From NCBI RefSeq assembly GCF_018420025.1, contig NZ_JAEDAM010000012.1, positions 1 through 18,697 of the forward strand: DNA of 18,697 bases. Direction: 5' to 3'. Each line of letters opens with the position of its first letter. Position 1 is the first letter of the stretch. The DNA is from Candidatus Vampirococcus lugosii (lineage in GTDB: Bacteria > Patescibacteriota > Gracilibacteria > Absconditabacterales > Absconditicoccaceae). Under the pieces are notes generated by a model, which was not told where the DNA came from, made no database searches, and saw nothing but the letters and a program-made list of their open reading frames with translations. A program made the translations under genes and the position numbers. Positions 41 to 15,648 of this stretch are shown here, one piece after another.

Positions 41-646
41 CTACAAAGATGAGGTATAATACCAAACATATCAAACTAATCAAGATTTAAGATATTTTTT
101 TAATTTTAATTGTTTAGTCATAATTGAAAATTCTCATATATATATATATATATTATTTTTTAAAAAATTTTTAAATTTATTTTCATCATATCATATATTA
201 TATATTTTATTTAATTTTTGATATGTAGAAAAAATAAATTTATCAGGATTTGGTAAAGTATACAAAATATTTCTATTTCTAATAAATGTAGGACTTATAT
301 AATTTATTTTAAATTTTTTAAAATTAACAAAATTAATTTTTTCAATATCAAAAATGTCAAAATCAAAATTTATTTTTTCCAACTCAAATTTTTGTCAATT
401 GATACTAATATTTAAATTTCATTTTGATAATATTTTCTTAAGTATTTCAGAATAAGCATCTTGTCAATTAATTGTAAGTCTAATTTGTAAATGATTATAT
501 TTTATATAAGATATTTTCAAAATTGATTTATAAATTTTTTCATCGTCATCAAAAACATTAAGAATAGCACCCAAAAGATGATAATAATATTCTGTATTTC
601 ATATCTTTTGTAAAGCTTTAAAATTTAATTTTAATAAATATAACAT
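41..646 (-). CDS. cas6: Cas6-like RAMP, putative crRNA-processing endoribonuclease (201 aa, atypically short)
   Basis: Translated with TGA=Gly: MLYLLKLNFKALQKIGNTEYYYHLLGAILNVF...KINYISPTFIRNRNILYTLPNPDKFIFSTYQKLNKIY...KSGLVGYVWYYTSSL*. The layout resembles Cas6, and the gene is last in the csm operon, 14 nt after csm3. It is in frame with track ORF 191..382. No terminal GxGxxxxxGxG loop was found. Confidence 0.5.
136..153. repeat. (AT)9 dinucleotide microsatellite inside the cas6-like CDS
   Basis: 18 nt of perfect AT repeats, encoding IYIYI on the minus strand. Confidence 0.9.
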
Positions 647-660
647 ATTATTTAATTTTA

Positions 661-1281
661 TTAATTAGAAACTATTTCTATTCTTCAATTACCTCTACTT
701 CATCATCATCAAATATAAGTTTTTTGTAAATAATCAATTCATTTTACCAAAATATCTTCAAGCTCTTGTTGACTTATTCAATACTCTCATTCATGAGGTA
801 ATAAAATTATTTGTCATTCAAATTCTACTCAAGCAGGAACTCTTTCTATATGTCTTGGATTAGCAGTTCATTTCAAAAACCTTGGCACAGTATTTTCCGA
901 TTTATCTTCAAAAAAATCAGATTTCATACTTTCAAATTTTTCTTTCCATTCTTCACTAAGATAAAAATCTTCAAATATAATTCTAGAAGATATTTTATTA
1001 TCTTTGTTTGCCATTCAAAAAGCTTTTGAAACTTCAGTATTAATATCTTGTACAGGATTTCATTTTTCATCAATTTTATTAGAATAATCAATCATTTCTA
1101 TTAAACTTCTCATTTTTCATTTAATACTACTACCTGGAATATATGGACATCATGTTAAAGGATTTTTTATTACAGATGAATCTATTCATCAAATTTTAAG
1201 ACCTTGTTCTGATCATCATATATGTAAACCAGTTTTCAAAATTATTTTATATTTTTTAACAATAGGATTTAACATTTTCAT
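661..1281 (-). CDS. csm3: Csm3, the Cas7-family backbone/RNase subunit of the type III-A complex (206 aa)
   Basis: MKMLNPIVKKYKIILKTGLHIGGSEQGLKIGGIDSSVIKNPLTGCPYIPGSSIKGKMRSLIE...ENTVPRFLKGTANPRHIERVPAGVEFEG...YIGGGGSRGNGRIEIVSN*. These are canonical Csm3 motifs, including the Asp of GGID. The frame was verified codon by codon and the length is 621 nt. Confidence 0.9.
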
Positions 1282-1331: not shown

Positions 1332-3911
1332 TTATTTAACTATTAAATAATAATTTCAAGTATCTTCCAATAATTCTTTTAATTCTAATGAATCATAATC
1401 TATATCTTTTATCATATTATATATTTCATCAATACTATTTGCACTAATATTTCATTGTCTTGAATTATTTTCAAGTTCTGCTATGATAACAAATCATCAA
1501 TTTTCTACTCAACGAAGATTAAGTGAAATATAATAATAATTTTTTCAATCCAAAGGATCATTAGGTAAACTAGTTAAATATCTAGGAATAAGATAATCTT
1601 GTATTTCATTAATTTTAATCATTCAATCACTTTCTGGATAACTTCATATACTAGAATGATAGATTGCCAAAGCTGTTCAAACTTGTCATAAATGTGATAA
1701 TCTTGCACTATCTCTTTTAGGAGATAAATATTCATAAAAAATATCTTCTGATTCCAAATAATTATCTGGAAAATCTATATTTATATTATCTAAATCTTCA
1801 TAATCATAATTATATGACATATCAAAATTCATAGATTTTAATCATATATTTTCTCAATATAGAAATGCTATCATTCAATTCATTTCTTCTGATATATTTT
1901 CTATATCTATATTTATACTTAATTCATTAATATTTATTATTCATGAATAATCTATTTTCACTCAATTATAATTTGCAATTCATTCAAAATTTACTCATTC
2001 ATTTTCTTTAATATTTATATCAAAATCTATATAAAATAATTCTTCTTTTATTTTTCAAGAAATATTTATTTTGGATTTTTCTGAATGTAATTCTGATAAA
2101 TCTAATGATGTTTCAACATATGTTCTATAATCACCTAAATTTTGATTAAGATAATCTTGATCAATATAATTTTGATAATCTAATAATGCTCTTGAATTTG
2201 TATCTGTATAATTATCTTTATAATTAAATTCAATTTTATTATTTTCATAATAAAAACTATTTTGTAAATCTGTTGATTTTATATATTCAATTCAATTTTT
2301 TGATACTATAATTTCTGTATTTTCATCATCATAATTATATCTTTCATATAAAGAATATTTTCAATTTCCTATATCTTCAACTATTAAATAATAATTTTTA
2401 AAATCTCTTTGAAAATCATCTTTTTTAAAATCATCTTCATCTTCATTAATTAAATATAAAAAATCAATAAAATTTTGATTATATAAAAGTTTATATTTAT
2501 TATCTCATAATTTTTCATAAACTGTAAAAAGTTCTTTATTATTAAGATATTCATATATTTTTTCTTCTTTTTCATTTACTTCATCTATAATTTTTACAAA
2601 TTCTGACAACTCATATCCTATATTATTATATGCTACATTATTATAGAATTCTTCATTTTCAAATTTTATATATTTTCATAAATTTTCATTTATTTTTTCT
2701 TTTATAAGATTATACATTTCTTTTTCTTCACTATACAAAAATTGTTTTAATCAAGAATTCTTAAATTCATTAATTTTAAGATAAAAGTCATTTTTATTTT
2801 GTTTTATATCAATATCATTATTTAATGATACATTTTCTTCTAATAAATCAGTTTCAAGATTAGTATTAAGTTTTATATTTCAATCAATTAAATCTTTTGT
2901 TAAATCATAATTTAAAATATAATCTAAAATAGAATTTAACTTTATATAATTATCTCATTTTGCATCCAAATTTAAAGATAAATTTCATTTTTCTTTACCT
3001 ATACCAATAATTCTATCAGAATTTAATAAATTTTCATTATTACTTCTTATAATATTACTTATTTGTTTTGCATCTTTTGCAATACTTTGTTGAAATCATA
3101 AAATAACATCATCAAATTCTTTTAATCTATTATTATATTTTTCTTCATAAAAATCATTTTTTTGATTTTCTTCTTTTTGAATTTCTTCATTAAAATCATT
3201 AATAATATTATTAACTGTATCTTCACAAGTTTCTTTAATACAATAATCAATTTTTTCTTTTATTTTTTCATCTGTAATTCATACAAATGTTTCATCTCCA
3301 ATAATAGTAAAAGGAACTCATTCTATAACAACTCAAAGTTGTTCTGAAATTTTATTTATTAATTTTCAATTTTCAGAATTATACCAAATTTCAAATTTAT
3401 TTATATTAATTTTATCTTGATATTTTTCACTATTTTCTATATTTTCCCATATTTCATTTTGTTTACTACATGCTGGACATCCATCTCACCAAAAATAGTA
3501 AACTTGTATTGGTCATTTTTCTAATATATTTTTTTCAATTTCATCTTCAATTTCTATTTCTCATTTATTTTCAATTTTTATCTCTCATCATAAATAATTT
3601 ATTCTTTCAACAAATCATTCAATAGCAAAACTTATCATCATATAATCTAATTCCCGAAAATTTCTTTTTTGTTTCACTATTTCTAATTTAGAATAGAATT
3701 CATATAATAAATCTAAATTATTTGTATTTGATAAAACATTTGTTAATTGTTTTTTAAAGTCATCAAAAATATCTTTTTCTTCTTGATTAAGTTCTTTATA
3801 CAAATTATTTGTTATCTCTTTATTTTCTTGTATTATTTCTTGTATATTATTTGCAAAACTTCAATTTGTTAATGTTATAAGCATTATTATTAATATAATT
3901 ATTTTTTTCAT
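1332..3911 (-). CDS. Large secreted protein (859 aa) with an N-terminal signal peptide, a thioredoxin-fold CxxC domain and a C-terminal pilin/pseudopilin-like globular domain
   Basis: N-terminus is MKKIIILIIMLITLTNGSFA/NN. Thioredoxin-like segment is VYYFWGDGCPACSKQ...GVPFTIIGDETFVG, with CPAC at 3468-3479. The C-terminal segment RDSARLSHLGQVGTALAIYHSSIGSYPES...YLTSLPNDPLDGKNYYYISL resembles the core of type IV pilin/T2SS pseudopilin domains. It is in frame with track ORF 3615..3803 and is 2580 nt long. Confidence 0.75.
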
Positions 3912-3943: not shown

Positions 3944-4417
3944 CTAATTTGCTTTTGGATTAAAATATTTATGATAAGCAACAAATACTTCCAAAAAATC
4001 TTTAAATTTTTGTTTATCATTTAATTCTTTATAAATTCATTTCAAAAACCTTAAAAATCATTCAGGAAGTAATTTTCTTGTTTCTTGATAACCAACTTTA
4101 GCAAACCATATTTGTATTTTAATATTTTTTTGATTTTCATCTCAAGCTCAATAAATTATATCATAATATGTATCATAAATTTTTCTAATTGATGAAGCAG
4201 ATTTTAGTTTTTCAAAAGAACTTGATACACTTTCAAATCTTTCCAAACTTAAAGAATTTATTAAATCATTTGAATCAAAATTATCTAAATAATTTTTCAT
4301 AAATATTGATTTATTATAATTGTATGATTTATTATAATTATTATTATATGTTTTATTATTTGAATTTTTATTATAAGAATTATTTCATTTGTCAGAATAT
4401 CATGGTATATATATCAT
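3944..4417 (-). CDS. csm2: Csm2, the Cas11 small subunit (157 aa; an alternative start at 4300 gives 118 aa)
   Basis: ...SASSIRKIYDTYYDIIYGAGDENQKNIKIQIWFAKVGYQETRKLLPEGFLRFLKGIYKELNDKQKFKDFLEVFVAYHKYFNPKAN*. This helical pattern and the C-terminal F..vaYhKy are typical of Csm2. The N-terminal 39 aa are low-complexity and N/Y/K-rich. Confidence 0.75.
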
Positions 4418-4445: not shown

Positions 4446-6941
4446 TTATATTTCTCTATTTTCATATATTTGATTTGTCATATTCATAAGTAGTTTATCA
4501 ATTTCTTTGATATTGTATTTAAATCAATTATCAAAACTATTTTTATCAATTTGTCATATAACTTTTTTTATGTTTTCTATCATTAATTTAGCATTATAAT
4601 TTTCTTTTACATTTTTATTTATAGAATAAATAATTTTTGCTCATAAATGAACTATTTTATATAATTCTTCTGGATTTTTAGAATTTTGACTTTCAAAAAA
4701 ATTTCTAATTTCCCAAAGATGATTATATATTCTATATTGTCCTGTGCTTTCCAATCATTCCCAATTGTTTTTGATAATATTAGTTAATTTAATTTCATTA
4801 ATATCACTTATTTTCATATTATCTTGATATATACAAACTCATCTATAAGATAATTTTTCTTCTTCAATAATATTTTTATTATTTAAATTAGATTTATAAT
4901 CTTGTTTTGCAGATTTTAATAAATTTTCTGTATCTTCATAAACTCTTTTGAATGGAGTTTTATTTTTGAATATACTAATTCATAAGCTAAAATGTAATTT
5001 ATCATTATTTGCAATAAATTTTTTGAAGCAATCTTGATAAATATCTGCAAAATTTAATCTATCTTTGAAAGGAAGAACAAAAATAAAATCGTCTCAACCA
5101 CTAAATACTGTATAGACATCAGGAAAAGTATTTTGTAATAATTCTTGAGTAAATTTTCCAAAAAACAATTCCATAAATCTACTAAATTGAACTAATCTAC
5201 TTACACTATAAATATCTTTAAATCAATGAGATAAAATAATACTCATATTATCAATATCTCCACAAATCATAGTAAGATAAGATCTATTTTTACTAGCAAG
5301 TTTATCAAAAGTTTTTACTTCATCTCATTGTATAGGTACATATAAATTTATTGATTTTCATATTAATAATTTATTTTTTTCTGATTTATCTATATTCCAA
5401 TCATTAAATAAAACTTTTAAACTTCATTTTCATTCAAAATCTAAATCAAAAACAAATTTATCATTTTCAATAAAATTTAAATATATACAATTATTTTTTA
5501 CTAATTTTTCACCAATTTCAATTTCTTTTTGACAATGTAAACAAATACTATTATCATAATCATTTTCATCATCGCTATTCGTGTAATTTATTCAACAATG
5601 TTTACACAAAACTTTTCAAGACACTTTTTGATAAGAAAAAATTTTTTGTAAATTTGAAACTGAATAAATACTTGTTTTATTTTGTGATAAATCATCAAAA
5701 AGTTCTTTGAAAGTATTATTAATATTATTTTTTATTTTAAAAATATTTTTTAATAAAACTTCTTTTTCTATAAGATTTATTTTTAAATCTGTATTATAAT
5801 TAAGAATAAAATAATTATTTATTTCATTTGCTATATCTTTAATACTAATCTTTTGATCTGCCAAAATTATAAATTTACCACCTGCATTTATAAGGACATT
5901 AGCAGGAGATAAATCTAATTTATTAATAATATAATGAATTACTGCTTCTGTAAGCATTTGTACTTTAAAAGATCTAGCTCTAAGTCTTTTTGAAAGTTTT
6001 GATTGATTTTTGATTCAATCAAAAATATATTTTTGTATACTAGGAAAATCTCAAGCTATAAGTTTTACTTTTTTTTCAAATACTTTATCTGTATCAGTAT
6101 TTTCTTTTTCATATTTGAAATCTTGGTATACAAATTTAGATTTGTAAAGAACATTTGCAATTGCAACTACAGTTTTGGTATGGTCATATAAAGAAATATC
6201 TCAAATACTTTTGTATGCATCACTTGGAACCATAGTAAAATAATTTTGTAATAATAATTCAAGTTTATATATAAATTCTTTAAATTCTTTATCAGAACTA
6301 TCATTATTTAAGTTTGATTCTGAAATTAAATTTTTTAAATCTTTTTGACAATTTTCATTAAGTTTTTTGAATCAATCACTTATATCTGTATTTCATATAT
6401 TTTTCATCAAATTTTGTAAATAAGCATCTTCAAAACTTCTTCCTTTATCCGTTGGAAAAAAAGATTTTATATTTAATTCTCATAAAGATTTTGGTAAATA
6501 AGTATATTTAGCTTTATTAGTTTTTGTATCTTTAAAAATATTTTCAAAAATACTTGTAAGTCATATATGTTTTATATTTTCATATTGTTTATCTGTAGCT
6601 GTTTCATCTATTCTATCTATTCTTTCATTTGAACTAATATTATCAGCCATATAAACTATCCAAGCTAAATTTTTTGTATTATCATTTTCAAAATTGTAGT
6701 TTTTCCAATCTCTTGCATGATGTAAAGATGCAATTAATCATATTTGTTTCCATAAATCATTAAAATCATTATCAAGCATAAACTCAAAAACTTGTTGAGC
6801 ATGAGCTATTTGATAAGGATTGAATCAATTTTTTGTTTTTGAATTTAAATTTCTATTCTGTCATCATCTTCGCATAAGTTTCCCTAAATCATGAAGATAA
6901 CTAGCTATTATTATTTTGTACAAATCTATATTTTTATTCAT
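4446..6941 (-). CDS. cas10: Cas10/Csm1 large subunit (831 aa) with HD nuclease and GGDD cyclase motifs intact
   Basis: MNKNIDLYKIIIASYLHDLGKL... (HD at 6888-6893), SLYDHTKTVVAIA, KLIAGDFPSIQKYIF, LRARSF, INAGGKF. Zinc finger is CKHCG...CLHCQ. Palm2 has LTMICGDIDNMS and VYTVFSGGDDFIFVLPF (GGDD at 5088-5099). It is in frame with track ORF 5616..5957 and is 2496 nt long. Confidence 0.92.
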
Positions 6942-6957
6942 TTATTTAAATATTAAT

Positions 6958-8139
6958 TTATTTAATTAAATCATTTATTATTTTTAATGTATTATCTTCT
7001 TTTTCAATTAATTTATCTAAATTTTTTAGATGTACTATAGGAACACCTAAAGTATCAAATAAGGCTTTTCCAATTCTATTTTTTAAATTATATGGTGATG
7101 TATATGATTCAATAAAATCATAAGCTTCATTAAACTCTCAATCAATATATTTTGATATCATATATCAGTATACATTTTTAGTTTCTTCTACATCAAAATG
7201 TGATATATCATCAATATCAATATCAATATAATTAATTGATACAATTTCTTCTTCAGAAATAACTTTTTCAATAGCATCATCAACAGTATTTTTGAACATA
7301 TTAAATTCCATTCTAAATGAATTTAAAAGACTCTCTTTATTAATTCTATTCTCTTTAACTATTGATTTTAATTCAATTAAATATTCTTCAGGTATATCAT
7401 ATGTATTAAGTAAAATCTCTATTGTATATATATTATTTTTAATATTCATAACACTAATTAAAATATTTATATATAAATTTGGAGAATCAAAAATAGTTTT
7501 TGAAAGATTATAAGCAATATCAATATATTTTAAGCAAGTTCAGTAATCTCAAATATGACAAGAATATATTGCAACTCCAAGTATATTTTTATTTAATTTT
7601 TTTACATTATCTTTAAGATAGATAATATCTGTATTAATATTTACTGATTTATCTAATTGAAAATGTTCGTAATCATTTAAAATATCATTAACTTCATAAA
7701 CAATTTTTTTAAATTCATCATCATTATAATAATAATCAAATATATTTTCATATTTTTTAATTCAATCTTTAATTATATTAGGTATTTCTTCATTTTCAAA
7801 AAGATTTTCATAATATTCATAATCAGGATTATAATCACCAAAATCATATCAAAAATATGAATTTTCATAAAAACTAAATATTTTTCAAGGTGTAAATCAA
7901 TCTTCACTATTATTATCTAAACTAAAAAGATCTCATTCTCATAATTCTAAAAAATACTCATTAATTACATAAAGTCAATTTTCTTCTTTAGGTAAATTTT
8001 CTACATAATTGACTAACTCAAGTTTAGAAGTATCATAATCAGGTATATTATGTGATCTATGAAGATAAATAAATCATACTATAAATAATAGTACTATAGA
8101 AACTATAAATACAAACAATATTTTTTTAAAAATTTTCAT
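6958..8139 (-). CDS. Membrane-anchored protein of unknown function (393 aa), located between csm4 and cas10
   Basis: MKIFKKILFVFIVSIVLLFIVGFIYLHRSHN... has a single N-terminal TM helix or signal anchor. The rest is acidic and Y/N-rich, with a possible TPR-like helix pair (LGVAIYSCHIGDYGTCLKYIDIAYNL). No RAMP, CARF or nuclease motif was recognised. It is in frame with track ORF 7165..7449, is 1182 nt long, starts 5 nt after the csm4 stop and ends 16 nt before the cas10 start. Confidence 0.7.
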
Positions 8140-8144
8140 TTTAT

Positions 8145-9059
8145 TTAAAATAAGTATCAAAAGTTAAAGCTATTTTCTATTTTATAATAAGTTCATTTAA
8201 GTTTTTCATTTGTGTAAATCAAAGATCATGGATATACAAAATTCATATTTCATTTAAATATATTTTTTTGTGTTGTTTTGGTATTTTTATTTTGTATATC
8301 TAAATTTGATTTATTAAGATCAAAAGTTTTTATTTCTTCTTGTGTTGGCAAATAATTATTTAATATATAATATATTCATTCTTTTTTCATATTTTCTATA
8401 TAATCAAATAATTCTTTTTCTTTATCGTTCAAATCCTCCAATAAGATAGTTTTTATTTTTCAATATCATATTGATTTATATTTCCCAAAACCAACAGTAT
8501 TAAATATAATTTGCATACTATTATAAAATTTTTGTCGCATATTTTCATCATATATTTTTATATACAAAACTATATTTTCATCAAAATAATTTATATTTTC
8601 CAATACATAAGGTGTAGTTTCTCATAAATTAAATCTTGTTGTAAAGTTTTTGAAATGTGAATTTATTTTATATGATGGAATATTTGATTTAAATTTATCT
8701 ACTAATTTTTTAAATTTTTCAAAATCATCTCACTGAAAAAAATAATCAAAAATATTTTTATCTATAGGAAAATATTTTATATTTTTATTTATTTTTCTAT
8801 TTGGTTCATTTTCCAAAATATTATCTAAACTTATATTGCTTCAAATTTTTAATTTAGGATTAAAATAAAAAGGTTTTGGTAAATATCATTCAAAAAATCA
8901 ATTACTAATCAAAAAAGGAGCATTTCAATTATTAAATTCTTGAAAAATATCTTTTAGATTATCAAAATCTAAAGCAAAAATATATCATAATATAGTATCT
9001 GATTCTAATTCAGTAGCAAAACCAGATTTAAAATTTAGTTTAATTTTTTTAATTTGCAT
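8145..9059 (-). CDS. csm4: Csm4, the Cas5-family RAMP that partners Cas10 (304 aa)
   Basis: MQIKKIKLNFKSGFATELESDTILGYIFAL...APFLISNGFFEGYLPKPF...NTVGFGKYKSIGYGKIK...YYILNNYLPTQEEI. These match the Csm4/Cmr3 hallmarks (sDTl, iSsaFP..lPKP, G-rich loop GxGxxxSxGyG). The frame was verified codon by codon to the TAA at 8145-8147. Confidence 0.8.
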
Positions 9060-9076
9060 ATTTAATTTATAATAAA

Positions 9077-10090
9077 TTATTTAAATTCTAATAAAAGCCA
9101 TCATACAGGATTTCAATTTTCATCAAGATATATACTTTTGTCTCAAACTCAAAATGTCCTAGAACTTTTATGATCCATTATTTTTAATCATTTTCTATGA
9201 TTAAATTTGTAAATATGGTCTTCCAAAATTTCTTCCCAAAATATTTTGTAAGACAAACTTTTTTTGAACATTCAAATTTTAATAGGATATTTTCATTGAT
9301 CATATAAATCATTTAACTTATCTATAAAATCAATTCTTATTCAAATATTATCTAAAATTTGTTCTTCTCTTGTTATCAAAATATTTGAATAATCTTTTAT
9401 TTTCTGAATAAAATCATCTCATAAAGAAATATTTTTTTCATTTGGATATATATCAATTTCTATATCAAACTCTCAAGAATTTATAGATTCCAATATTTGC
9501 CATATTCAATGTTCTTTACCTGTATTTGCTTTTTTATTTACTCATAATATTTTTTGAATATATTTTTCATAATTTTTTATTTTAACATCATTGAATCATA
9601 TAAAATTAAATAATTCATTATCTAATTGTTTATTTAGTGAATTAATATATTCTTTATTTTCTATATTTGAATAATCATTATAAAGTTTGTCATATAAAAA
9701 AACAGTCCTAAATATTCCTTTAAGAGTACTTCAAGGTATTATAGGAGTATTAGTAAATTTATCATAAATAAATTTTTTTATTTGTCATTGATTATTTTTT
9801 TCTTTTGCATTTTGTAAAACTTTGATAGCTTCTTTTTTAATTTCAATTCTTTCAATAATTTCAAAATTTGAAATATCGATTTTATCTTTTATTATTTCTA
9901 ATCTTTTAAAATCTCAAAATTGAATACAATTTAATACATCATTAAACTTTTCTTTATTATCAATTTTTTCCAACCAATTATTATTTACAACTAATAATTC
10001 ATTTCATCTTATAAAAAAATCAAATCTTTCATATAATTCTCAATTATTTATATTTATACTACTAAGTATAGAACAAGAAATTTTTTTCAT
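9077..10090 (-). CDS. csm5: Csm5-like Cas7-family RAMP (337 aa)
   Basis: MKKISCSILSSININNGELYERFDFFIRGNELLVVNNNWLEKI...TNTPIIPGSTLKGIFRTVFLY...SSRTFGVGDKSIYLDENGNPVGWLLLEFK*. It has the RAMP motif P.IPGS.lKG..R and a Csm5-type C-terminus (G..pvGW..l). Length is 1014 nt. Confidence 0.7.
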
Positions 10091-10230: not shown

Positions 10231-11565
10231 ATGAAAAAAGAAAAAGTATTATTAATATGGTCTTTTGGTACTTCTGATATTTACTTGGATGGTAAATTAA
10301 TAAGAGATAATTTTTTGTCAAAAACAAAAGATATTGCTAAAAATTTTGATACTTATTACAATGAAAAAAGAATTAATATGAGTATTTTAGAAAATTTTGT
10401 AAATGAATTTTATAATAATAAAGAAATAATTATTAAGTGAATTTTTACTGACCAAAATTGATTTGAGCAAGATACAATTTATTTACAAACAATTTTGATG
10501 AAATATATTCAAAAATGATCTATTTCATCAAAAATTAAATCTGCTAGAGAACATATAATTTTGGATGAAGCAAGAAGATTTGATATTATCAAAAATAAAT
10601 TAGATTCTTATTTAAAAAATATACCTACAAATATATTTGAAGAAATAATGATAAATAATACTTCTGGAACTAAATGACTTAGTTCTGCTTTACTTTTTTC
10701 ATCTTTATTGAATTTTGAATTATGAAAATTATCTTTTTATTATGGTGAACAAATAGATAAAGATACTTTATTTATGAAACAATCAAATATTATATATTTT
10801 GTACATAAACAAAATATTGATAATTTTTTGGAAAATAAAGATTTTGAATCTTGTATTTCTTATTTACAAAATAATAATTTAATCTCTTCTTTTAAAAAAG
10901 AATTTGATTATTCCAAATATATGTTTGCAAGAATTAATGCTGATTATGATAAATGTAAAGAAATTTATAAAAAATGAAATTTAGATTCCAAATTTGCAAT
11001 TACTAAAAATACTGTAAATAAAATACAAGAAATGATAAATTGAATAATTTTTACTTTTGATAAAAAAAGATTTATAGAATTTTTGGGTAGAATATATAAT
11101 TTTACTGATGTAGGACTTAGATTTTTTATAAATAAATTTTTTGAAACTGATTTTGAAAGTATTAAATACAAAGATTTACAAGATTTTGTACAAAAATATC
11201 CTGATTTGGAAAAATTTTTGAATAATTATAAAGTAAGATTTAATAATAAAGCTTCTTTTCTTAATTGGAATATAAAAAATTCAGATCATATGATAAAAGA
11301 AATATGATTTATAAATACTAAAGTAATGTTGTCATTACTTGATTTTATATCTACTAAAAATTGAGAATATAAAAAATATAAAGATTTTTTTGTGAGATTA
11401 GAAAAATTAAATGAATATAGAAACAATACTTTGATAGCTCATTGAATGAATCAAGTAAATGAAAAAATTATTTTTGAAAAATATTGATATGATACTATCA
11501 AAACTGATTTTATTGATTTATTGGAAAATATAGTTTGAAAAAATAAATTATGGATTGAGTTTTAA
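10231..11565 (+). CDS. csm6: CARF-HEPN ancillary ribonuclease, Csm6/Csx1 family (444 aa)
   Basis: The N-terminus KVLLIWSFGTSD and NNTSGTKGLSSALLF resemble the CARF beta1 strand and the tGGtK.m loop. The C-terminus EYRNNTLIAHG is a HEPN R-x6-H motif (R at 11419-11421, H at 11440-11442). It joins track ORFs 10231, 10774 and 11083, which share one frame, across TGA codons. Confidence 0.65.
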
Positions 11566-11587
11566 TTAAATTATAATACACATAAAA

Positions 11588-12595
11588 ATGTTTATATATC
11601 TTACCAAAAATTGACTTAATGTAAGCAAAAAATGATGAAAATTAATAATTTATGATATAAATGATGAAAATACACAAGAAACTCCTATTAGTTTGATAGA
11701 ATGAGTAGTAATATTTGGTAGAGTGCAACTTACAACAGATGTTATTAGAGAATTTTTGAAATGAAAAGTTCCAGTATTTTTCTTATCCAAACATTGATCA
11801 TATTTTGGAAAATTGGATAGTTTGGAACAAACTAATGTAGAATTATTATATAATCATATCAAAGCAAGTATGGATAGTGATATTTCGTTGAAATATTCAA
11901 AATCTATAATTTCATCAAAAATAAATAATAGTATTGTTATGTTGCAAAGATGGACAAGATTTAAAGAAATTTATTGATGTGAAAATAAAATACAAAAATT
12001 AAGAGATTTACAAAAAAATATTGCTGAATGTAATAATTTAGATTCTTTGAGATGATATGAATGAACTTGTGCAAGAATTTATTTTGAATGATTTGCAAAA
12101 TTTGTAAAAGAACCGTTCAAATTTGAATCAAGAAATCGCAGACCTCCGAAAGATCCAGTAAATGCAATGTTAAGTTTGTGATATACATTATTGGCACAAA
12201 CTATACAAATGATATTGGATATACAATGAGTTAATACTCAAATTTGATTTTTTCATCAACCAAAAGATTTAAGAACTTTATTAGTTTTGGATATGATGGA
12301 AATGTATAGAGCTTGGATAGTAGATGATATGATTTTGAAAATTATAGAAAATTGAAAAATTAAATTGGAAAATTTTCAAATAATTGAAGAAAATCCAAAA
12401 AGACCTGTTTTGTTAGATGATGATTGATTAAAAATTTTTCTTACAGAGTATTACAAAACTATATTTAAGTGAAAAGATGAAATGAGTATTCATAATACTA
12501 TGAAAAAACTTAAAACAATAGAAATAAATATAGAAGAATTTAAACAAACTTTAGTAAAAAAAACTTTTGATTATGAGGGTTTTAAGATTAAGTAA
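11588..12595 (+). CDS. cas1: Cas1 integrase (335 aa)
   Basis: MFIYLTKNGLNVSKKGGKLIIYD...LIEGVVIFGRVQLTTDVIREFLKGKVPVFFLSKHGSYFGKL...LRGYEGTCARIYFEGFAK...SRNRRPPKDPVNAMLSLGYTLL...GFFHQPKDLRTLLVLDMMEMYR. These are canonical Cas1 motifs, several with TGA-encoded Gly. Confidence 0.93.
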
Positions 12596-12602
12596 TGAAA
12601 AA

Positions 12603-12923
12603 ATGTATTTAAGTATAAGTTATGATATTAGCAATACTAAAGCAAGAAATAGAATAGTAAAATTGCTTGAAAGTTATGGTTTCAGAGTACAAAAATCAGT
12701 TTTTGAAGTGCAATTAAATGAAAGACAATTTAAAATTTTGAAAAAACAATTGCAAAAAATTTTGGATCGAGCCAAAAAACAATATCCAGAAGAACATAAT
12801 AATGTAGATTCTATAAAATTTTATGTATTGTCAAAAATTTGAGAATGAAGTTTGGATGGTAGAATAGATGGATTATGAAGTGGTTATGAAAAAATTTATT
12901 TTGAAGAATTTATGATAATATAA
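12603..12923 (+). CDS. cas2: Cas2 (106 aa; an alternative upstream start at 12567 overlaps cas1)
   Basis: MYLSISYDISNTKARNRIVKLLESYGFRVQKSVFEVQLNERQFKILKKQL...FYVLSKIGEGSLDGRIDGLGSGYEKIYFEEFMII*. This is the canonical Cas2 N-terminus, and the track ORF is extended through three TGA codons. Confidence 0.9.
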
Positions 12924-12943: not shown

Positions 12944-13270
12944 TTAATCAATCCAAAAAGTATTTGAACAATAATCACATTTGATGTATGATTCTTTTTT
13001 ACATTTTTTTTGAATTTTAGCTCAACAATTAGGACAAATAATATTATTTAATTTAGTATTATTTTGTTTTGATGATTTGGTAAAACATTTCAATACAATG
13101 TAAGGTGCTCAAAAAAGGGAACTAATAATTAATCGACCAAAAACAACTTCAATTTCAAATCCTTCTTGTCCTGAGATAAAGGCTATAAAAAATAATAAAG
13201 AAATAAATAAACAAATATAAAAAGGTATTTGTAAAATAATTAATATTGTATTTTTTATTTTTATTCACAT
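12944..13270 (-). CDS. Small membrane protein with a C-terminal zinc ribbon, paralog A (108 aa)
   Basis: MGIKIKNTILIILQIPFYICLFISLLFFIAFISGQEGFEIEVVFGRLIISSLFGAPYIVLKCF...ICPNCGAKIQKKCKKESYIKCDYCSNTFWID*. It has hydrophobic N-terminal helices and a CxxC...CxxC motif, and is 327 nt long. Confidence 0.55.
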
Positions 13271-13393: not shown

Positions 13394-13789
13394 TTAATCA
13401 ATCCAAAAAGTGCCTAAACAATAATCACATTTGAGATATGATTTATTTTTACATTTTTTGTGAATTTTAGCTCAACAATTAGGACAAATAATATTATTTA
13501 ATTTAATATTATTACTTAAATCAGTTTTATTACTTAAATCAGTTTTATTACTTAAATCAGTTTTATTACTTAAATCAGTTTTATTACTTAAATCAGTATT
13601 ATTACTTAAATCAGAATTATCATTTTTTAATGATTTTTTAGAATATTTCGATATAATGTAAGGTGTTCAAAACATGGAACATCGAATAATAATTGCCGAA
13701 ACAAATTCAAATATTCAATCTTCTTCTGACATATAGCCTATAAGAAATAATAAAAAAAAATGTATTAGTAATATAACTATAATTATCAT
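13394..13789 (-). CDS. Small membrane protein with a C-terminal zinc ribbon, paralog B (131 aa), with an internal hexapeptide repeat insertion
   Basis: MIIIVILLIHFFLLFLIGYMSEEDGIFEFVSAIIIRCSMFGTPYIISKY...NSDLSNNTDLSNKTDLSNKTDLSNKTDLSNKTDLSNNIKLNNIICPNCGAKIHKKCKNKSYLKCDYCLGTFWID*. Length is 396 nt. Confidence 0.55.
13511..13618. repeat. 18-bp tandem repeat x6 (attacttaaatcagtttt; the last two copies each carry 1-2 substitutions)
   Basis: Copies were counted directly at 13511, 13529, 13547, 13565, 13583 and 13601. The repeat is in frame within paralog B and absent from paralog A. Confidence 0.95.
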
Positions 13790-13911
13790 TGTATTTTTTG
13801 TTTTTATTAATTAAAAGTATAATAAAAATTATTATTTAAAATAAAAATTTATAATTCAATTATTGAAAAATACAAGAAATAATTTACTAAAATAAAAAAA
13901 TAATAAAAAAC

Positions 13912-13939
13912 TTGCAAAATAAAAATAAATTATTATACT
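13912..13939 (+). promoter_or_regulatory. Candidate promoter for the leader and CRISPR array: TTGCAA-16 nt-TATACT
   Basis: Hexamers read directly, about 190 nt upstream of the first repeat. Confidence 0.35.
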
Positions 13940-14129
13940 GATAAATAGTCTATTGTGTGATGTATTTTATTAGAAAAATAATAAAAAATGTCAAAAATTT
14001 CTCGGCATAGTTTAGAACTGGTGTTTCGTGCTGTTGGAGATGAGTTTTGAGAGAAAAAACAAAAAATTAAAAATTTTCTCGGAAAGCTATCTCAGATAGT
14101 AGTTCTAAACTGGTCGTAAAATTGTATCG
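13940..14129 (+). promoter_or_regulatory. CRISPR leader with a locally GC-enriched, repeat-rich core (13988-14129)
   Basis: It abuts the first repeat on the side opposite the degenerate terminal repeat. It contains a direct repeat AAAAATTTCTCGG / AAAAATTTTCTCGG (13993, 14069), an 11-bp perfect inverted repeat AGTTTAGAACT / AGTTCTAAACT (14009-14019, 14101-14111) and a small palindrome CTATCtcaGATAG (14087-14099). Confidence 0.6.
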
Positions 14130-15648
14130 GTAGACTAAAAGCTCGAAATTACGAGCATCGAAACAACAATTTTGATTTATAAACCATTATTTTTTTTTAA
14201 GTAGACTAAAAGCTCGAAATTACGAGCATCGAAACTCTCACTCCCAGATTGAAACCCAGGAGAAACTACTCGTAGACTAAAAGCTCGAAATTACGAGCAT
14301 CGAAACATAATCTCCTCTCCGGAGATTATAAACCCTTTTATTTCTATCAGTAGACTAAAAGCTCGAAATTACGAGCATCGAAACGGAGATTATAAAACTA
14401 TTAATTCATATTATATTTTTTTTCAGTAGACTAAAAGCTCGAAATTACGAGCATCGAAACAGTATTCTTCAAGTTTAAATGAGCTTTTTCAGTTTTCTGT
14501 AGACTAAAAGCTCGAAATTACGAGCATCGAAACCCTCTTCTAATCAATCTGTTTCATTTATGATAATCATATGTTTATTGTAGACTAAAAGCTCGAAATT
14601 ACGAGCATCGAAACTCAAACCCAAAATTATAAACAATTTCAAGTTCTTCTGTAGACTAAAAGCTCGAAATTACGAGCATCGAAACAATTTGAGGTTCATC
14701 AAATCCAAAATTGTTAATAATTTCAAGTAGACTAAAAGCTCGAAATTACGAGCATCGAAACTCAAGAATATCAGTGTTTAATTCAACTGAGCCAGTCCAT
14801 AGTAGACTAAAAGCTCGAAATTACGAGCATCGAAACCCAAGACATCAAGCAATTGAGTGCCTTCAAGCACCCAAGTAGACTAAAAGCTCGAAATTACGAG
14901 CATCGAAACTATCTGCTGCGACTTCAAAATAAAACACTAATTCTCTGTAGACTAAAAGCTCGAAATTACGAGCATCGAAACTTCACAAGTCTCTAGCCGC
15001 TTCCAGCATGTCGGAAGCGACTTCGTAGACTAAAAGCTCGAAATTACGAGCATCGAAACTGACCTTTGATTTATAAATCATTTATTGTTTTTAATATAGT
15101 AGACTAAAAGCTCGAAATTACGAGCATCGAAACTCTCATACCCGATTTTCTTCAGGTATAAGAAAAAATAGTAGACTAAAAGCTCGAAATTACGAGCATC
15201 GAAACCCTCTTCGGAGATTATAAAACTTTTTATTTCTATCGTAGACTAAAAGCTCGAAATTACGAGCATCGAAACTCTGAAGAGGAGGTTATAAATCATT
15301 TTATAATTATCTCTTTGTAGACTAAAAGCTCGAAATTACGAGCATCGAAACAAATAACAACTCTTCAACCTCTTCTACACCATCATTCTGTAGACTAAAA
15401 GCTCGAAATTACGAGCATCGAAACCAAAAGCTTTCTTTATTAATTTCAAAGCTTTTTTTGTTCTTTGTAGACTAAAAGCTCGAAATTACGAGCATCGAAA
15501 CTGGGGACACTTACTTTTATAAATCATTATTATATTTTTGTAGACTAAAAGCTCGAAATTACGAGCATCGAAACCGGTCTCGTCCAAAGACGAAGCCAAT
15601 AGCTTAATGACTTGTAGACTAAAAGCTCGAAATTACGAGCATCGAAAA
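14130..15648 (+). CRISPR. CRISPR array with 21 copies of the 35-nt repeat GTAGACTAAAAGCTCGAAATTACGAGCATCGAAAC and 20 spacers of 35-46 nt
   Basis: Repeat starts are 14130, 14201, 14272, 14350, 14426, 14499, 14580, 14651, 14727, 14802, 14875, 14947, 15025, 15099, 15171, 15241, 15317, 15390, 15467, 15540 and 15614. The repeat has an internal hairpin GCTCG-AAATTA-CGAGC and a 3' end ATCGAAAC, which is a type I/III-style 8-nt tag. The last repeat ends GAAAA, which sets the polarity. Confidence 0.97.

What the first reader, a model, noticed from the sequence alone, without database searches (positions are those of the whole stretch)
14165..15539. Nine of 20 spacers fall into a few sequence families, so the array has repeatedly sampled the same target loci from diverged variants
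Family A is S1 (14165), S13 (15060), S19 (15502) and S16 (15276). Their reverse complements read as an AT-rich stretch followed by ATGGTTTATAAATCAAAATTG, ATGATTTATAAATCAAAGGTC, ATGATTTATAAAAGTAAGTGTCCC and ATGATTTATAACCTCCTCTTC. These translate to MVYKSKL, MIYKSKV, MIYKSKCP and MIYNLLFR. The differences are synonymous or conservative, including a TCA to AGT serine switch, as expected for the 5' UTR and start of a conserved gene in diverged elements. Family B is S3 (14307), S15 (15206) and S4 (14385), which share GGAGATTATAAA(A/C)C. S3 and S15 are 30/33 identical and differ in a hairpin loop. Family C is the adjacent S7 and S8 (14615, 14686), which are 24/28 identical and encode (L)EI[VI][YN]NFGF. 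Eight of these spacers (all except S8) carry a TTATAAA core in the same orientation, GC-richer on the 5' side and AT-rich on the 3' side. The crRNA sense is antisense to the inferred mRNAs, as type III targeting requires. This suggests an arms race with a family of related mobile elements, and possibly acquisition biased toward gene 5' ends.
Basis: seen in the sequence. Interest (0 to 1): 0.75.

Follow-up and report, generated by a model that had tools for sequence, protein, structure and literature searches.

The report
Related spacers in a type III CRISPR array
A CRISPR array in an uncultured bacterium that reads TGA as glycine took nine of its twenty immune memories from three short stretches of foreign DNA, a clustering already described for this type of CRISPR system in Streptococcus; the foreign DNA itself could not be found.

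Summary
The window carries a complete type III-A (Csm) CRISPR-Cas locus from an Absconditabacteria genome that reads TGA as glycine. The array has 21 identical 35-nt repeats and 20 spacers.

- **Families.** Nine spacers form three families: A (S1, S13, S16, S19), B (S3, S4, S15) and C (S7, S8). Twelve same-strand spacer pairs score 12 or more, against about 0.3 in shuffles. TTATAAA occurs in 8 of 20 spacers, where about 0.6 is expected.
- **Independent acquisition.** Family members have different boundaries, so they are not duplications inside the array.
- **Orientation.** All 20 spacers have the base composition of the antisense strand of genes, as type III targeting needs.
- **Gene-start claim.** This part is not established. 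It fits S1/S13 fairly well, cannot apply to family B (no ATG), and other readings work about as well.
- **Targets.** No protospacer exists in any searchable collection, so the targets are unknown.
- **This array is unusual.** Among 22 related arrays it is the outlier for family structure, for the motif and for hairpin-forming spacers (6 of 20, against 5% in controls).
- **Best explanation.** This looks like the adaptation hot spots known for type III-A systems: gene starts, promoter-proximal DNA and hairpin-forming DNA. They were hit repeatedly in related or repeated foreign sequences.

It is a new example of a known phenomenon.

The parts
14130..15648 (+). CRISPR array: 21 copies of the 35-nt repeat GTAGACTAAAAGCTCGAAATTACGAGCATCGAAAC (the last copy ends in A) and 20 spacers of 35-46 nt
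   Evidence: Orientation rests on five points: the repeat ends in the 8-nt tag ATCGAAAC just after the hairpin GCTCG/CGAGC; the degenerate last repeat is at the far end; the leader is on the cas2 side; the minus strand of each repeat is terminator-like; cas1-cas2-leader-array has the same layout in relatives
13900..14129 (+). Leader with a sigma-70-like promoter TTGCAA-16-TATACT (13912-13939) and the motif AAAAATTT(T)CTCGG at 13993-14005 and 14069-14083
   Evidence: The motif TTTTCTCGGAAAC is also in the leaders of L005 and L006
14165..14200 (+). S1, family A (newest spacer); reverse complement reads ...AAATA ATG GTT TAT AAA TCA AAA TTG
15060..15098 (+). S13, family A; 27/35 identical to S1; holds the perfect 14-nt palindrome TGATTTATAAATCA
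15276..15316 (+). S16, family A by its ATGATTTATAA core but also matches family B (GGAGGTTATAAATCATTTTAT); nearly the whole spacer forms a 16-bp hairpin
15502..15539 (+). S19, family A (oldest member)
14307..14349 (+). S3, family B; 9-bp stem hairpin ATAATCTCC/GGAGATTAT (MFE -10.5, z = -7.7), followed by a T-rich tail
14385..14425 (+). S4, family B; overlaps S15 (23/28) and is shifted 7 nt at its 5' end
15206..15240 (+). S15, family B; 32/35 identical to S3
14615..14650 (+). S7, family C; reverse complement reads EELEIVYNFGF
14686..14726 (+). S8, family C; 24/28 identical to S7 and shifted by 13 nt; reverse complement reads EIINNFGFDEPQI
14910..15024 (+). S11 and S12: a possible fourth overlapping pair (shared GCGACTTC; reverse complements read RELVFYFEVAAD and EVASDMLEAARDLG); not statistically significant
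4446..6941 (-). cas10/csm1 (831 aa under code 25), with an N-terminal HD motif and GGDD
   Evidence: TIGR02578 at 417 bits, cut-off 170; Pfam palm2 and Csm1_B domains; GGDD visible
661..1281 (-). csm3
   Evidence: TIGR02582 at 185 bits, cut-off 90
3944..4417 (-). csm2
   Evidence: PF03750 at 37 bits, cut-off 24.8
8145..10090 (-). csm4-like ORF (8145-9059; no family hit, assigned by position only) and csm5-like RAMP protein (9077-10090; weak hit)
41..646 (-). cas6 (weak hit)
   Evidence: PF10040, E = 7e-4, below the cut-off; Cas6 sits at the same place in L005
10231..11565 (+). csm6-like CARF protein with a C-terminal R-x6-H motif (weak hits only)
11588..12923 (+). cas1 (11588-12595; no reverse-transcriptase domain) and cas2 (12573-12923)
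   Evidence: PF01867, E = 2e-80, and PF09827; Cas1 is 83% identical to that of Ca. Absconditicoccus praedator

Best explanation
**What it is.** This is the spacer array of a complete type III-A (Csm) CRISPR-Cas system in an Absconditabacteria genome that reads TGA as glycine. The organism is a close relative of Ca. Absconditicoccus praedator.

**What happened.** Cas1-Cas2, which carries no reverse transcriptase, took at least nine of the 20 spacers in separate events from three short regions of foreign DNA. That DNA was either a set of related mobile elements or several copies of a repeated element within one.

**Why one orientation.** Only insertions whose crRNA pairs with the transcript give immunity in a type III system, so all retained spacers point the same way.

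**Why the clustering.** It is best explained by the acquisition bias already shown for type III-A systems. That bias produces hot spots just downstream of strong promoters, around gene starts, and at hairpin-forming or partly palindromic DNA that is transcribed but poorly translated. Retention by selection adds to it.

**What the families are.**
- A and B look like AT-rich gene-boundary or regulatory sequence: a compositional step at a TTATAAA core, plus palindromes and hairpins.
- C looks like ordinary coding sequence.

**Shown:** the array and its orientation, the cas genes, the families, independent acquisition, the strand bias and the excess of hairpins.

**Inferred:** the location of the targets, the hot-spot mechanism and the identity of the elements.
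For: - **System.** Type III-A identity and code 25. Cas1 has only a Cas1 domain.
- **Families.** They are far beyond chance and all lie on one strand. Boundaries differ between members, by 1 to 14 nt.
- **Strand bias.** 20 of 20 spacers are antisense-like, and 235 of 305 across 22 related arrays. The codon-usage test agrees for the non-family spacers.
- **Hairpins.** 6 of 20 spacers are unusually stable, against 5.3% of random host 38-mers (Fisher p = 0.0007). S3, S16, S14 and S18 have z-scores from -3.7 to -7.7.
- **Coding signal.** Family A spacers give no clear coding-strand signal, while most other spacers do.
- **Composition.** GC drops at the core in 8 of 8 spacers.
- **Relatives.** A related array (L092, spacers 5/12/16) has a family that spans a gene start: synonymous changes after the ATG and a 2-nt indel before it.
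- **Literature on S. thermophilus type III-A.**
  - Acquisition is independent of PAM and orientation.
  - Hot spots lie at partly palindromic DNA, promoter regions and 5' UTRs.
  - Spacer density peaks 10-50 nt after start codons (PMC8860593).
  - Natural spacers cluster downstream of conserved early phage promoters, and blocking translation strengthens the hot spot (PMC13575424).
  - Strand bias arises by selection (PMC7515739).
Against: - No protospacer was found, so the position of any target relative to genes or promoters is unverified.
- The 21 related arrays show no hairpin excess (5.6% against 5.3%). Most have few or no families. A general structural preference of this lineage's Cas1-Cas2 is therefore not shown, and the peculiarity may lie in the targets.
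- A host-derived start-site matrix finds no excess of start-like sites.
- No -35 box or extended -10 element accompanies the TATAAT/TATAAA core (read directly from the sequence).
- In the crRNA sense, S3, S15 and S18 look like hairpin plus T-run terminators. If so, they would be on the wrong strand unless the terminators work in both directions.
Confidence: 0.5

Rival explanations
1. Family A is the 5' UTR and start codon of one conserved gene (M-[IV]-Y-K-S-K...) in diverged elements. The repeated hits record an arms race in which escape variants forced re-acquisition at the same locus.
For: - All S1/S13 differences after the ATG are conservative or synonymous: V/I, AAA/AAG, L/V (read from the sequence).
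- A TAA stop lies within a few nt upstream of the ATG in all four members (TAATG, TAAATG, TAAAATG), as at tightly packed gene junctions.
- Upstream sequence is SD-less and A-rich, like host gene starts.
- The L092 family in a relative is a convincing gene start.
Against: - The same bases also read N-[DG]-L-stop or K-G(TGA)-F-I.
- None of 64 host genes starts with ATGATT.
- Neither the start-site matrix nor the codon test supports it.
- S16 diverges straight after MIY, into a 54% GC hairpin arm.
- Family B has no ATG, yet shares the core and flanks with family A.
- Near-duplicates such as S3/S15 (3 mismatches) add little protection in a mismatch-tolerant type III system, which argues against escape-driven re-acquisition. 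The tolerance is from my own knowledge, not from a tool result.
Confidence: 0.2
2. One element, many copies. Families A and B, and perhaps the adjacent pairs, come from paralogous copies of a short repeated element inside a single small mobile element. The repeat could be operator or promoter sites, intergenic terminators or a repeated protein motif. The 'variants' would then be paralogues, not diverged strains.
For: - Across A and B only a core of about 12-14 nt is conserved (TTATAAA-nC-nTT), with divergent flanks. That is the pattern of repeated functional sites.
- S13 carries a perfect 14-nt palindrome, which looks like an operator.
- Family A and B members are interleaved along the array.
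- Related pairs are adjacent three times: S3/S4, S7/S8 and S15/S16.
Against: - The adjacency is not significant (p = 0.09).
- The close pairs (S1/S13, S3/S15, S7/S8) have differences spread along their whole length, as orthologous variants would.
- Nothing can be checked without the target.
Confidence: 0.2
3. Chance similarity from AT-rich low complexity, or duplication of spacers within the array followed by mutation.
For: - The genome is 20% GC, and AT-rich 7-mers recur easily. Up to 7 shuffled spacers shared some 7-mer.
- A true spacer duplication does exist in a relative (L079, spacers 9 and 11).
Against: - 13 pairs score 12 or more, against a mean of 0.3-0.5 and a maximum of 3 in shuffles.
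- The best pairs are 32/35, 27/35 and 24/28 identical.
- Boundaries differ within every pair, which repeat-mediated duplication cannot produce.
Confidence: 0.02
4. Motif-guided capture. The palindromic TTATAA(A) core itself directs where this Cas1-Cas2, or a partner nuclease, cuts prespacers.
For: - The core lies 16-17 nt from the spacer 3' end in 5 of 8 spacers, drawn from three families (p about 0.001, or 0.005 with one member per close pair).
- S7 has the core, while its homologue S8 lacks it and has different boundaries.
Against: - Twelve TTATAA occurrences in 21 related arrays show no positional clustering.
- The arrays with the most similar repeat found (L081/L098, 5 differences in 35 nt by my reading) have no TTATAAA in any spacer.
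- There is no nucleotide bias at spacer ends.
- S4, S13 and S16 do not fit.
- The test was chosen after seeing the data.
Confidence: 0.05

Closest known systems
Type III-A (Csm) CRISPR-Cas, e.g. Streptococcus thermophilus CR2 and Staphylococcus epidermidis
   Same: - Cas10/Csm1 with HD and GGDD, plus Csm2, Csm3, a Csm5-like protein, Cas6, a Csm6-like CARF protein, and Cas1-Cas2 without reverse transcriptase.
- A repeat with a hairpin and an 8-nt 3' tag.
- Long, variable spacers (35-46 nt).
- Spacers antisense to coding-type sequence.
   Different: - The host uses genetic code 25 and has 20% GC.
- Two unannotatable ORFs (859 aa and 393 aa) sit inside the csm operon.
- The array is long (20 spacers), whereas natural S. 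thermophilus type III-A arrays average four (PMC13575424).
Type III-A adaptation hot spots (Zhang et al. 2021, PMC8860593; Noble-Molnar et al. 2026, PMC13575424)
   Same: - Many spacers come from a few narrow regions.
- Hairpin-forming and palindromic sequence is in excess.
- The sequences look like gene boundaries or 5' regions.
- Spacers show no end motif.
- Retained spacers are antisense.
   Different: - There the protospacers were mapped and the promoter dependence was tested experimentally. Here the targets are unknown.
- The hairpin excess is seen in this array only, not in 21 related arrays.
Overlapping spacers from primed adaptation in type I systems
   Same: Several spacers come from one small region of a target.
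   Different: - The window has no type I genes (no Cas3 or Cascade).
- The overlapping members differ in sequence, so they did not come from one DNA molecule at one locus.
- Priming is not known for type III systems (my own knowledge).
RT-Cas1 spacer capture from RNA (Marinomonas mediterranea type III-B; Vibrio vulnificus type III-D)
   Same: It is associated with type III systems and is biased toward transcribed sequence.
   Different: Cas1 here is 335 aa and has only a Cas1 domain, and no reverse transcriptase is present in the window.

Membership tests
CRISPR array | Identical direct repeats separated by unique spacers of similar length, with a leader at one end and a degenerate terminal repeat at the other | tested here: met
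   21 repeats of 35 nt and 20 spacers of 35-46 nt; the last repeat ends in A instead of C; the AT-rich leader holds a promoter
Type III-A (Csm) CRISPR-Cas | Cas10/Csm1 large subunit with an HD nuclease motif and a GGDD cyclase palm | tested here: met
   TIGR02578 at 416.8 bits against a cut-off of 170; Pfam palm2 and Csm1_B domains; SGGDD and an N-terminal LHD are visible. The Pfam HD hit itself is only weak (E = 0.003)
Type III-A (Csm) CRISPR-Cas | Csm2 small subunit and Csm3 backbone RAMP protein | tested here: met
   PF03750 at 37.2 bits, above 24.8; TIGR02582 at 185 bits, above 90
Type III-A (Csm) CRISPR-Cas | Csm4, Csm5, Cas6 and a CARF effector (Csm6) | tested here: inconclusive
   Csm5 scores 28.4 bits, below the 38.3 cut-off; Cas6 scores 20.7, below 25; the CARF hits are weak; the csm4-like ORF has no hit and is assigned by position only
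Type III-A (Csm) CRISPR-Cas | crRNAs complementary to target transcripts (strand bias of retained spacers) | tested here: met
   Indirect: 20 of 20 spacers are antisense-like by composition; 13 of 20 by the codon test, which is 86% accurate on controls; ATG density is 14 against 5 between the strands. Direct mapping was not possible
Type III-A adaptation hot spot (promoter-proximal, gene-start or structured DNA) | Protospacers pile up in narrow regions | tested here: met
   Inferred from spacer families with offset boundaries
Type III-A adaptation hot spot (promoter-proximal, gene-start or structured DNA) | Hot spots coincide with hairpin-forming or partly palindromic DNA | tested here: inconclusive
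   Met for this array (6/20 against 5.3%, p = 0.0007) but not for 285 spacers from related arrays (5.6%)
Type III-A adaptation hot spot (promoter-proximal, gene-start or structured DNA) | Hot spots lie just downstream of active promoters or near start codons | not testable with these tools
   No protospacer in IMG/VR, JGI metagenomes, GTDB genomes, GenBank phages, PLSDB or the protein collection
Type III-A adaptation hot spot (promoter-proximal, gene-start or structured DNA) | No PAM | tested here: inconclusive
   No positional nucleotide bias inside the spacer ends across 304 spacers; the flanking sequence is unknown
RT-Cas1 RNA-derived spacer acquisition | A reverse-transcriptase domain fused to or next to Cas1 | tested here: not met
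   Cas1 is 335 aa with PF01867 only; no ORF in the window resembles a reverse transcriptase
Primed adaptation (type I) | Cas3 and Cascade in the same locus | tested here: not met
   Only csm genes, cas6, cas1 and cas2 are present

The most novel reading that the evidence does not exclude
In this Absconditabacteria type III-A system a short AT-rich palindrome, TTATAA(A), acts as an internal landmark for prespacer capture. Under this reading Cas1-Cas2 or a partner nuclease preferentially excises fragments that place the motif about 17 nt from one end, which would be sequence- or structure-guided acquisition in a supposedly PAM-less system. The supporting facts are the core's fixed distance from the 3' end in 5 of 8 spacers from three families, and S7 versus its core-less homologue S8, which has different boundaries.
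Probability: 0.05. Interest if true: 0.7.

Novelty: new member of a known kind. Interest (0 to 1): 0.3.

Why it matters
If the best explanation holds, this is a natural record, in a bacterium very distant from Streptococcus and using a different genetic code, of the hot-spot behaviour of type III-A spacer acquisition. So far that behaviour has been mapped mainly in Streptococcus thermophilus and staphylococcal systems.

It would suggest that the bias toward gene-proximal, structured and poorly translated DNA is a general property of type III adaptation.

On the practical side, the nine related spacers define three short conserved sequences. These could be used to fish out the still unknown phages or plasmids of Absconditabacteria from the source sample.

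The finding does not open a new question by itself, because the targets are missing and the phenomenon is already described.

Tried and rejected
**Protospacer searches, all negative**
- GenBank phages, whole array, sensitive blastn. PLSDB plasmids.
- IMG/VR, eight scans:
  - family B, 28-mer and degenerate 22-mer;
  - S1/S13 degenerate 20-mer, four chance hits whose flanks do not match;
  - S19 and S16;
  - two spacers from related arrays;
  - a back-translated pattern for the S12 peptide.
- JGI metagenomes, family B 27-mer. The empty result also shows that this array is not in that collection.
- GTDB genomes:
  - the repeat;
  - an A/B consensus pattern, which gave 45 hits, all by chance, none in Absconditabacteria and several inside unrelated coding sequence that reads G-D-Y-K-x-F-Y.
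- The 5.8-billion-protein collection, queried with concatenated spacer-encoded peptides: 3 candidates, none scoring. Short peptides are near the limit of what that tool can report.
- Rfam on the array.
- All fetched loci.

**Looking up the source contig**
Rejected or empty, because the tools translate with table 11.

**Hypotheses tested and dropped**
- A general enrichment of translation starts among spacers. Only L011 shows an ATGAAAAA excess.
- A general 5'-GC to 3'-AT gradient. It appears only in this array.
- Hairpin stems coinciding with spacer ends: 7 of 10, but 48% in random host windows.
- Nucleotide bias at spacer ends.
- Adjacency of related spacers (p = 0.09).
- S11/S12 as a fourth family, which rests on a single 8-mer.
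- A promoter reading of the TATAAT/TATAAA core, which has no -35 box and no extended -10.
- A transposon-end reading, because the conserved block is only about 12 nt.
Full report
**1. What is in the window**

The window is 20% GC. With the standard bacterial code it has only four ORFs of 80 aa or more. Reading TGA as a sense codon restores a dense set of genes. TGA falls at conserved glycine positions, including the second G of the Cas10 GGDD motif and the G-rich C-terminus of Csm3. The organism therefore uses code 25.

Cas1 is 83% identical to that of Candidatus Absconditicoccus praedator. A Logan contig from run SRR13241708 is 100% identical to window 11527-12908.

The genes are:
- cas6, csm3, csm2 and cas10/csm1;
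- a csm4-like and a csm5-like gene;
- a CARF/HEPN-like csm6;
- cas1 and cas2.

Strong family matches exist for Cas10 (417 bits), Csm3 (185 bits), Csm2, Cas1 and Cas2. The others give weak matches or none. There is no reverse transcriptase. This is a type III-A locus.

The array (14130-15648) has 21 copies of a 35-nt repeat and 20 spacers of 35-46 nt. Its plus-strand orientation rests on these points:
- the hairpin followed by the 8-nt ATCGAAAC tag at the repeat's 3' end;
- the degenerate last repeat at the far end;
- the leader on the cas2 side, with a sigma-70-like promoter;
- a leader motif shared with relatives;
- the minus strand of every repeat looking like an intrinsic terminator.

**2.

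TTATAAA occurs on one strand in 8 of 20 spacers. Its density elsewhere in the window is 0.82 per kb, which predicts about 0.6 occurrences.

Local alignment of all spacer pairs gives 13 pairs scoring 12 or more, 12 of them in the same orientation. Shuffles give a mean of 0.3-0.5 and a maximum of 3.

Identities over the whole overlap:

| Pair | Identity |
|---|---|
| S3/S15 | 32/35 |
| S1/S13 | 27/35 |
| S7/S8 | 24/28 |
| S4/S15 | 23/28 |

Members of a family start and end at different positions, offset by 1 to 14 nt. They were therefore acquired separately and are not duplications inside the array.

Families A and B are also linked. S16 carries the family A core ATGATTTATAA and also matches S3 and S15 (GGAGGTTATAAATCATTTTAT). 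This gives a common consensus of a GC-richer segment, then TTATAAA, then nCnTTTTAT.

**3. Orientation**

Host genes have A > T and G > C on the coding strand, and the spacers have the mirror composition.
- All 20 window spacers score as antisense.
- So do 235 of 305 spacers in 22 related arrays.
- A codon-usage classifier that calls the strand correctly for 86% of host 38-mers puts 13 window spacers on the reverse-complement strand. It is neutral or negative for S1, S2, S4, S13, S16, S19 and S20.
- ATG is three times denser on the reverse complement, as in real genes.

The crRNAs are therefore complementary to coding-type sequence, as type III interference needs and as selection is known to produce (PMC7515739; PMC13575424).

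**4. Is family A a gene start?**

For:
- S1 and S13 differ after the ATG only by V/I, a synonymous Lys codon and L/V.
- A TAA lies within a few nt upstream of the ATG in all four members.
- Host genes likewise start after A-rich sequence without a Shine-Dalgarno motif.

Against:
- The same bases read equally well as AAT-GAT-TTA-TAA (a gene end) or K-G(TGA)-F-I.
- None of 64 host genes starts with ATGATT.
- A start-site matrix gives no enrichment.
- Family A is the group without a coding-strand signal.
- S16 runs straight into a GC-rich hairpin arm.
- Family B has no ATG. On the reverse-complement strand it carries in-frame TAG/TAA stops, followed by a 9-bp hairpin that holds GGAGAGGAG.

I regard A and B as gene-boundary or regulatory sequence whose exact nature is unresolved. 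Family C reads well as coding sequence, but both strands stay open.

**5. The targets could not be found**

No spacer matched anything in the sources below.

| Source |
|---|
| GenBank phages |
| PLSDB plasmids |
| IMG/VR, eight scans |
| JGI metagenomes |
| GTDB genomes |
| Protein collection, queried with spacer-encoded peptides |
| Rfam |
| All fetched loci |

The hits were chance matches whose flanks disagree.

**6. Comparison with related arrays**

Cas1 relatives and a repeat-family scan of metagenomes gave 22 non-redundant arrays with 305 spacers.

Diverged, offset, same-strand spacer pairs do occur elsewhere:
- L092, spacers 5/12/16;
- L089, spacers 5/8;
- L067, spacers 1/4;
- L011, a group sharing TTTTTCATAAT.

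The L092 family is a convincing gene start, with synonymous changes after the ATG and a 2-nt indel before it.

The window array is nevertheless the clear outlier:

| Measure | Window array | Other arrays |
|---|---|---|
| Related same-strand pairs | 12 | at most 6 |
| Spacers with TTATAAA | 8 | 0-1 |
| Spacers with unusually stable hairpins | 6 of 20 | 5.6% |

Random host 38-mers give 5.3% stable hairpins.

**7. Explanation**

Published work on S. thermophilus type III-A adaptation describes this kind of pattern:
- Acquisition is independent of PAM and orientation.
- Sharp hot spots occur at partly palindromic DNA, promoter regions and 5' UTR attenuators.
- Spacer density peaks 10-50 nt after start codons (PMC8860593).
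- Natural spacers cluster downstream of conserved early phage promoters.
- The hot spot needs transcription and grows when translation is blocked (PMC13575424).

Near-duplicates such as S3/S15 add little protection in a mismatch-tolerant type III system (my own knowledge). This also points to a bias at acquisition rather than re-acquisition driven by escape mutants.

I therefore favour repeated hot-spot sampling of a few structured, gene-proximal regions in related elements, or in repeated copies within one element, followed by selection for the functional orientation.

The main weakness is that the related arrays show no hairpin excess. The peculiarity may then belong to the targets, for example a small element rich in regulatory repeats, rather than to the adaptation machinery.

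**8. Leads that did not hold**

- Hairpin stems touching spacer ends: 7 of 10, but 48% in random host windows.
- Adjacency of related spacers: p = 0.09.
- Nucleotide bias at spacer ends: none.
- Position of the TTATAAA core: it lies 16-17 nt from the 3' end in 5 of 8 spacers (p about 0.001-0.005). This remains unexplained, but the 12 TTATAA occurrences in related arrays show no such pattern.

**9. Verdict**

The array is a striking but explicable example of a known property of type III-A adaptation, in an unusual host. Interest is modest (0.3). It would rise if the targets were recovered and showed motif-guided capture.

Noticed in passing
whole window; e.g. 4446-6941 (-) and 661-1281 (-): The genome uses genetic code 25 (TGA = Gly). 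Only four ORFs of 80 aa or more exist under table 11. TGA encodes conserved glycines, including the second G of the Cas10 GGDD motif. Tools that translate with table 11 cannot look up these proteins.
   Followed up: yes
1332-3911 (-) and 6958-8139 (-): Two large ORFs with no family assignment sit inside the csm operon. One is an 859-aa protein with a signal-like N-terminus and a thioredoxin-like CPAC motif (only a marginal TrxA hit). The other is a 393-aa protein with an N-terminal membrane helix. The A. praedator locus (L005) has neither at the corresponding places.
   Followed up: partly
12944-13270 (-) and 13394-13789 (-); tandem repeat at 13500-13643: Two paralogous small ORFs lie between cas2 and the leader. 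They share a C-terminal CPNCGAKI...KC.YC..TFWID tail that looks like a zinc ribbon. The second contains six copies of an 18-nt tandem repeat encoding (DLSNKT)n.
   Followed up: no
13993-14005 and 14069-14083 (leader); L005 and L006 leaders: The leader motif AAAAATTT(T)CTCGG occurs twice in the window's leader. It is conserved as TTTTCTCGGAAAC in the leaders of Ca. A. praedator and a Mono Lake relative, so it may be a leader-anchoring or integration signal.
   Followed up: partly
every repeat, minus strand, e.g. 14141-14156: On the minus strand each repeat reads as an intrinsic terminator (GCTCG-TAATTT-CGAGC followed by TTTTAG). This would stop antisense transcription through the array.
   Followed up: partly
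6967-6988, matched by S13 (15060-15098): Positions 15-36 of S13 match 21 of 22 nt at the 3' end of the 393-aa ORF in the cas operon. The crRNA would be complementary to that transcript. At this base composition it is probably chance (my rough estimate is p about 0.03), and the match is too short for self-targeting.
   Followed up: partly
14910-15024 (S11, S12): These adjacent spacers share GCGACTTC at S12's 3' end and near S11's 5' end. Their reverse complements read RELVFYFEVAAD and EVASDMLEAARDLG. They may be a fourth overlapping pair, but one shared 8-mer is not significant.
   Followed up: partly
the eight spacers that carry TTATAAA: The core lies 16-17 nt from the spacer 3' end in five of the eight spacers, drawn from three families (p about 0.001-0.005). 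The pattern is absent from related arrays and remains unexplained.
   Followed up: yes
L092 (metagenome contig ERZ773099 NODE-19657), spacers 5, 12, 16: Three spacers of a related array cover the same gene start (MKI[EQ]KLK). The changes after the ATG are synonymous and there is a 2-nt indel before it.
   Followed up: partly
L011/L014, spacers 2, 9, 10, 18: Four spacers of a more distant relative share TTTTTCATAAT near their 3' ends (reverse complement ATTATGAAAAA). ATGAAAAA occurs at 6.8 per kb in that array's spacers, against 0.95 per kb inside host genes, which suggests several unrelated gene starts were sampled.
   Followed up: partly
L005 (Ca. A. praedator CP054059.1, 796955-817806) and L006 (Mono Lake, JGI 3300001335): The A. 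praedator type III-A locus is flanked on both sides by IS1595-family transposase genes and holds a GIY-YIG ORF. The Mono Lake relative has a short Cas10 (537 aa), a SAVED-domain protein and a UvrD-like helicase next to cas1.
   Followed up: no
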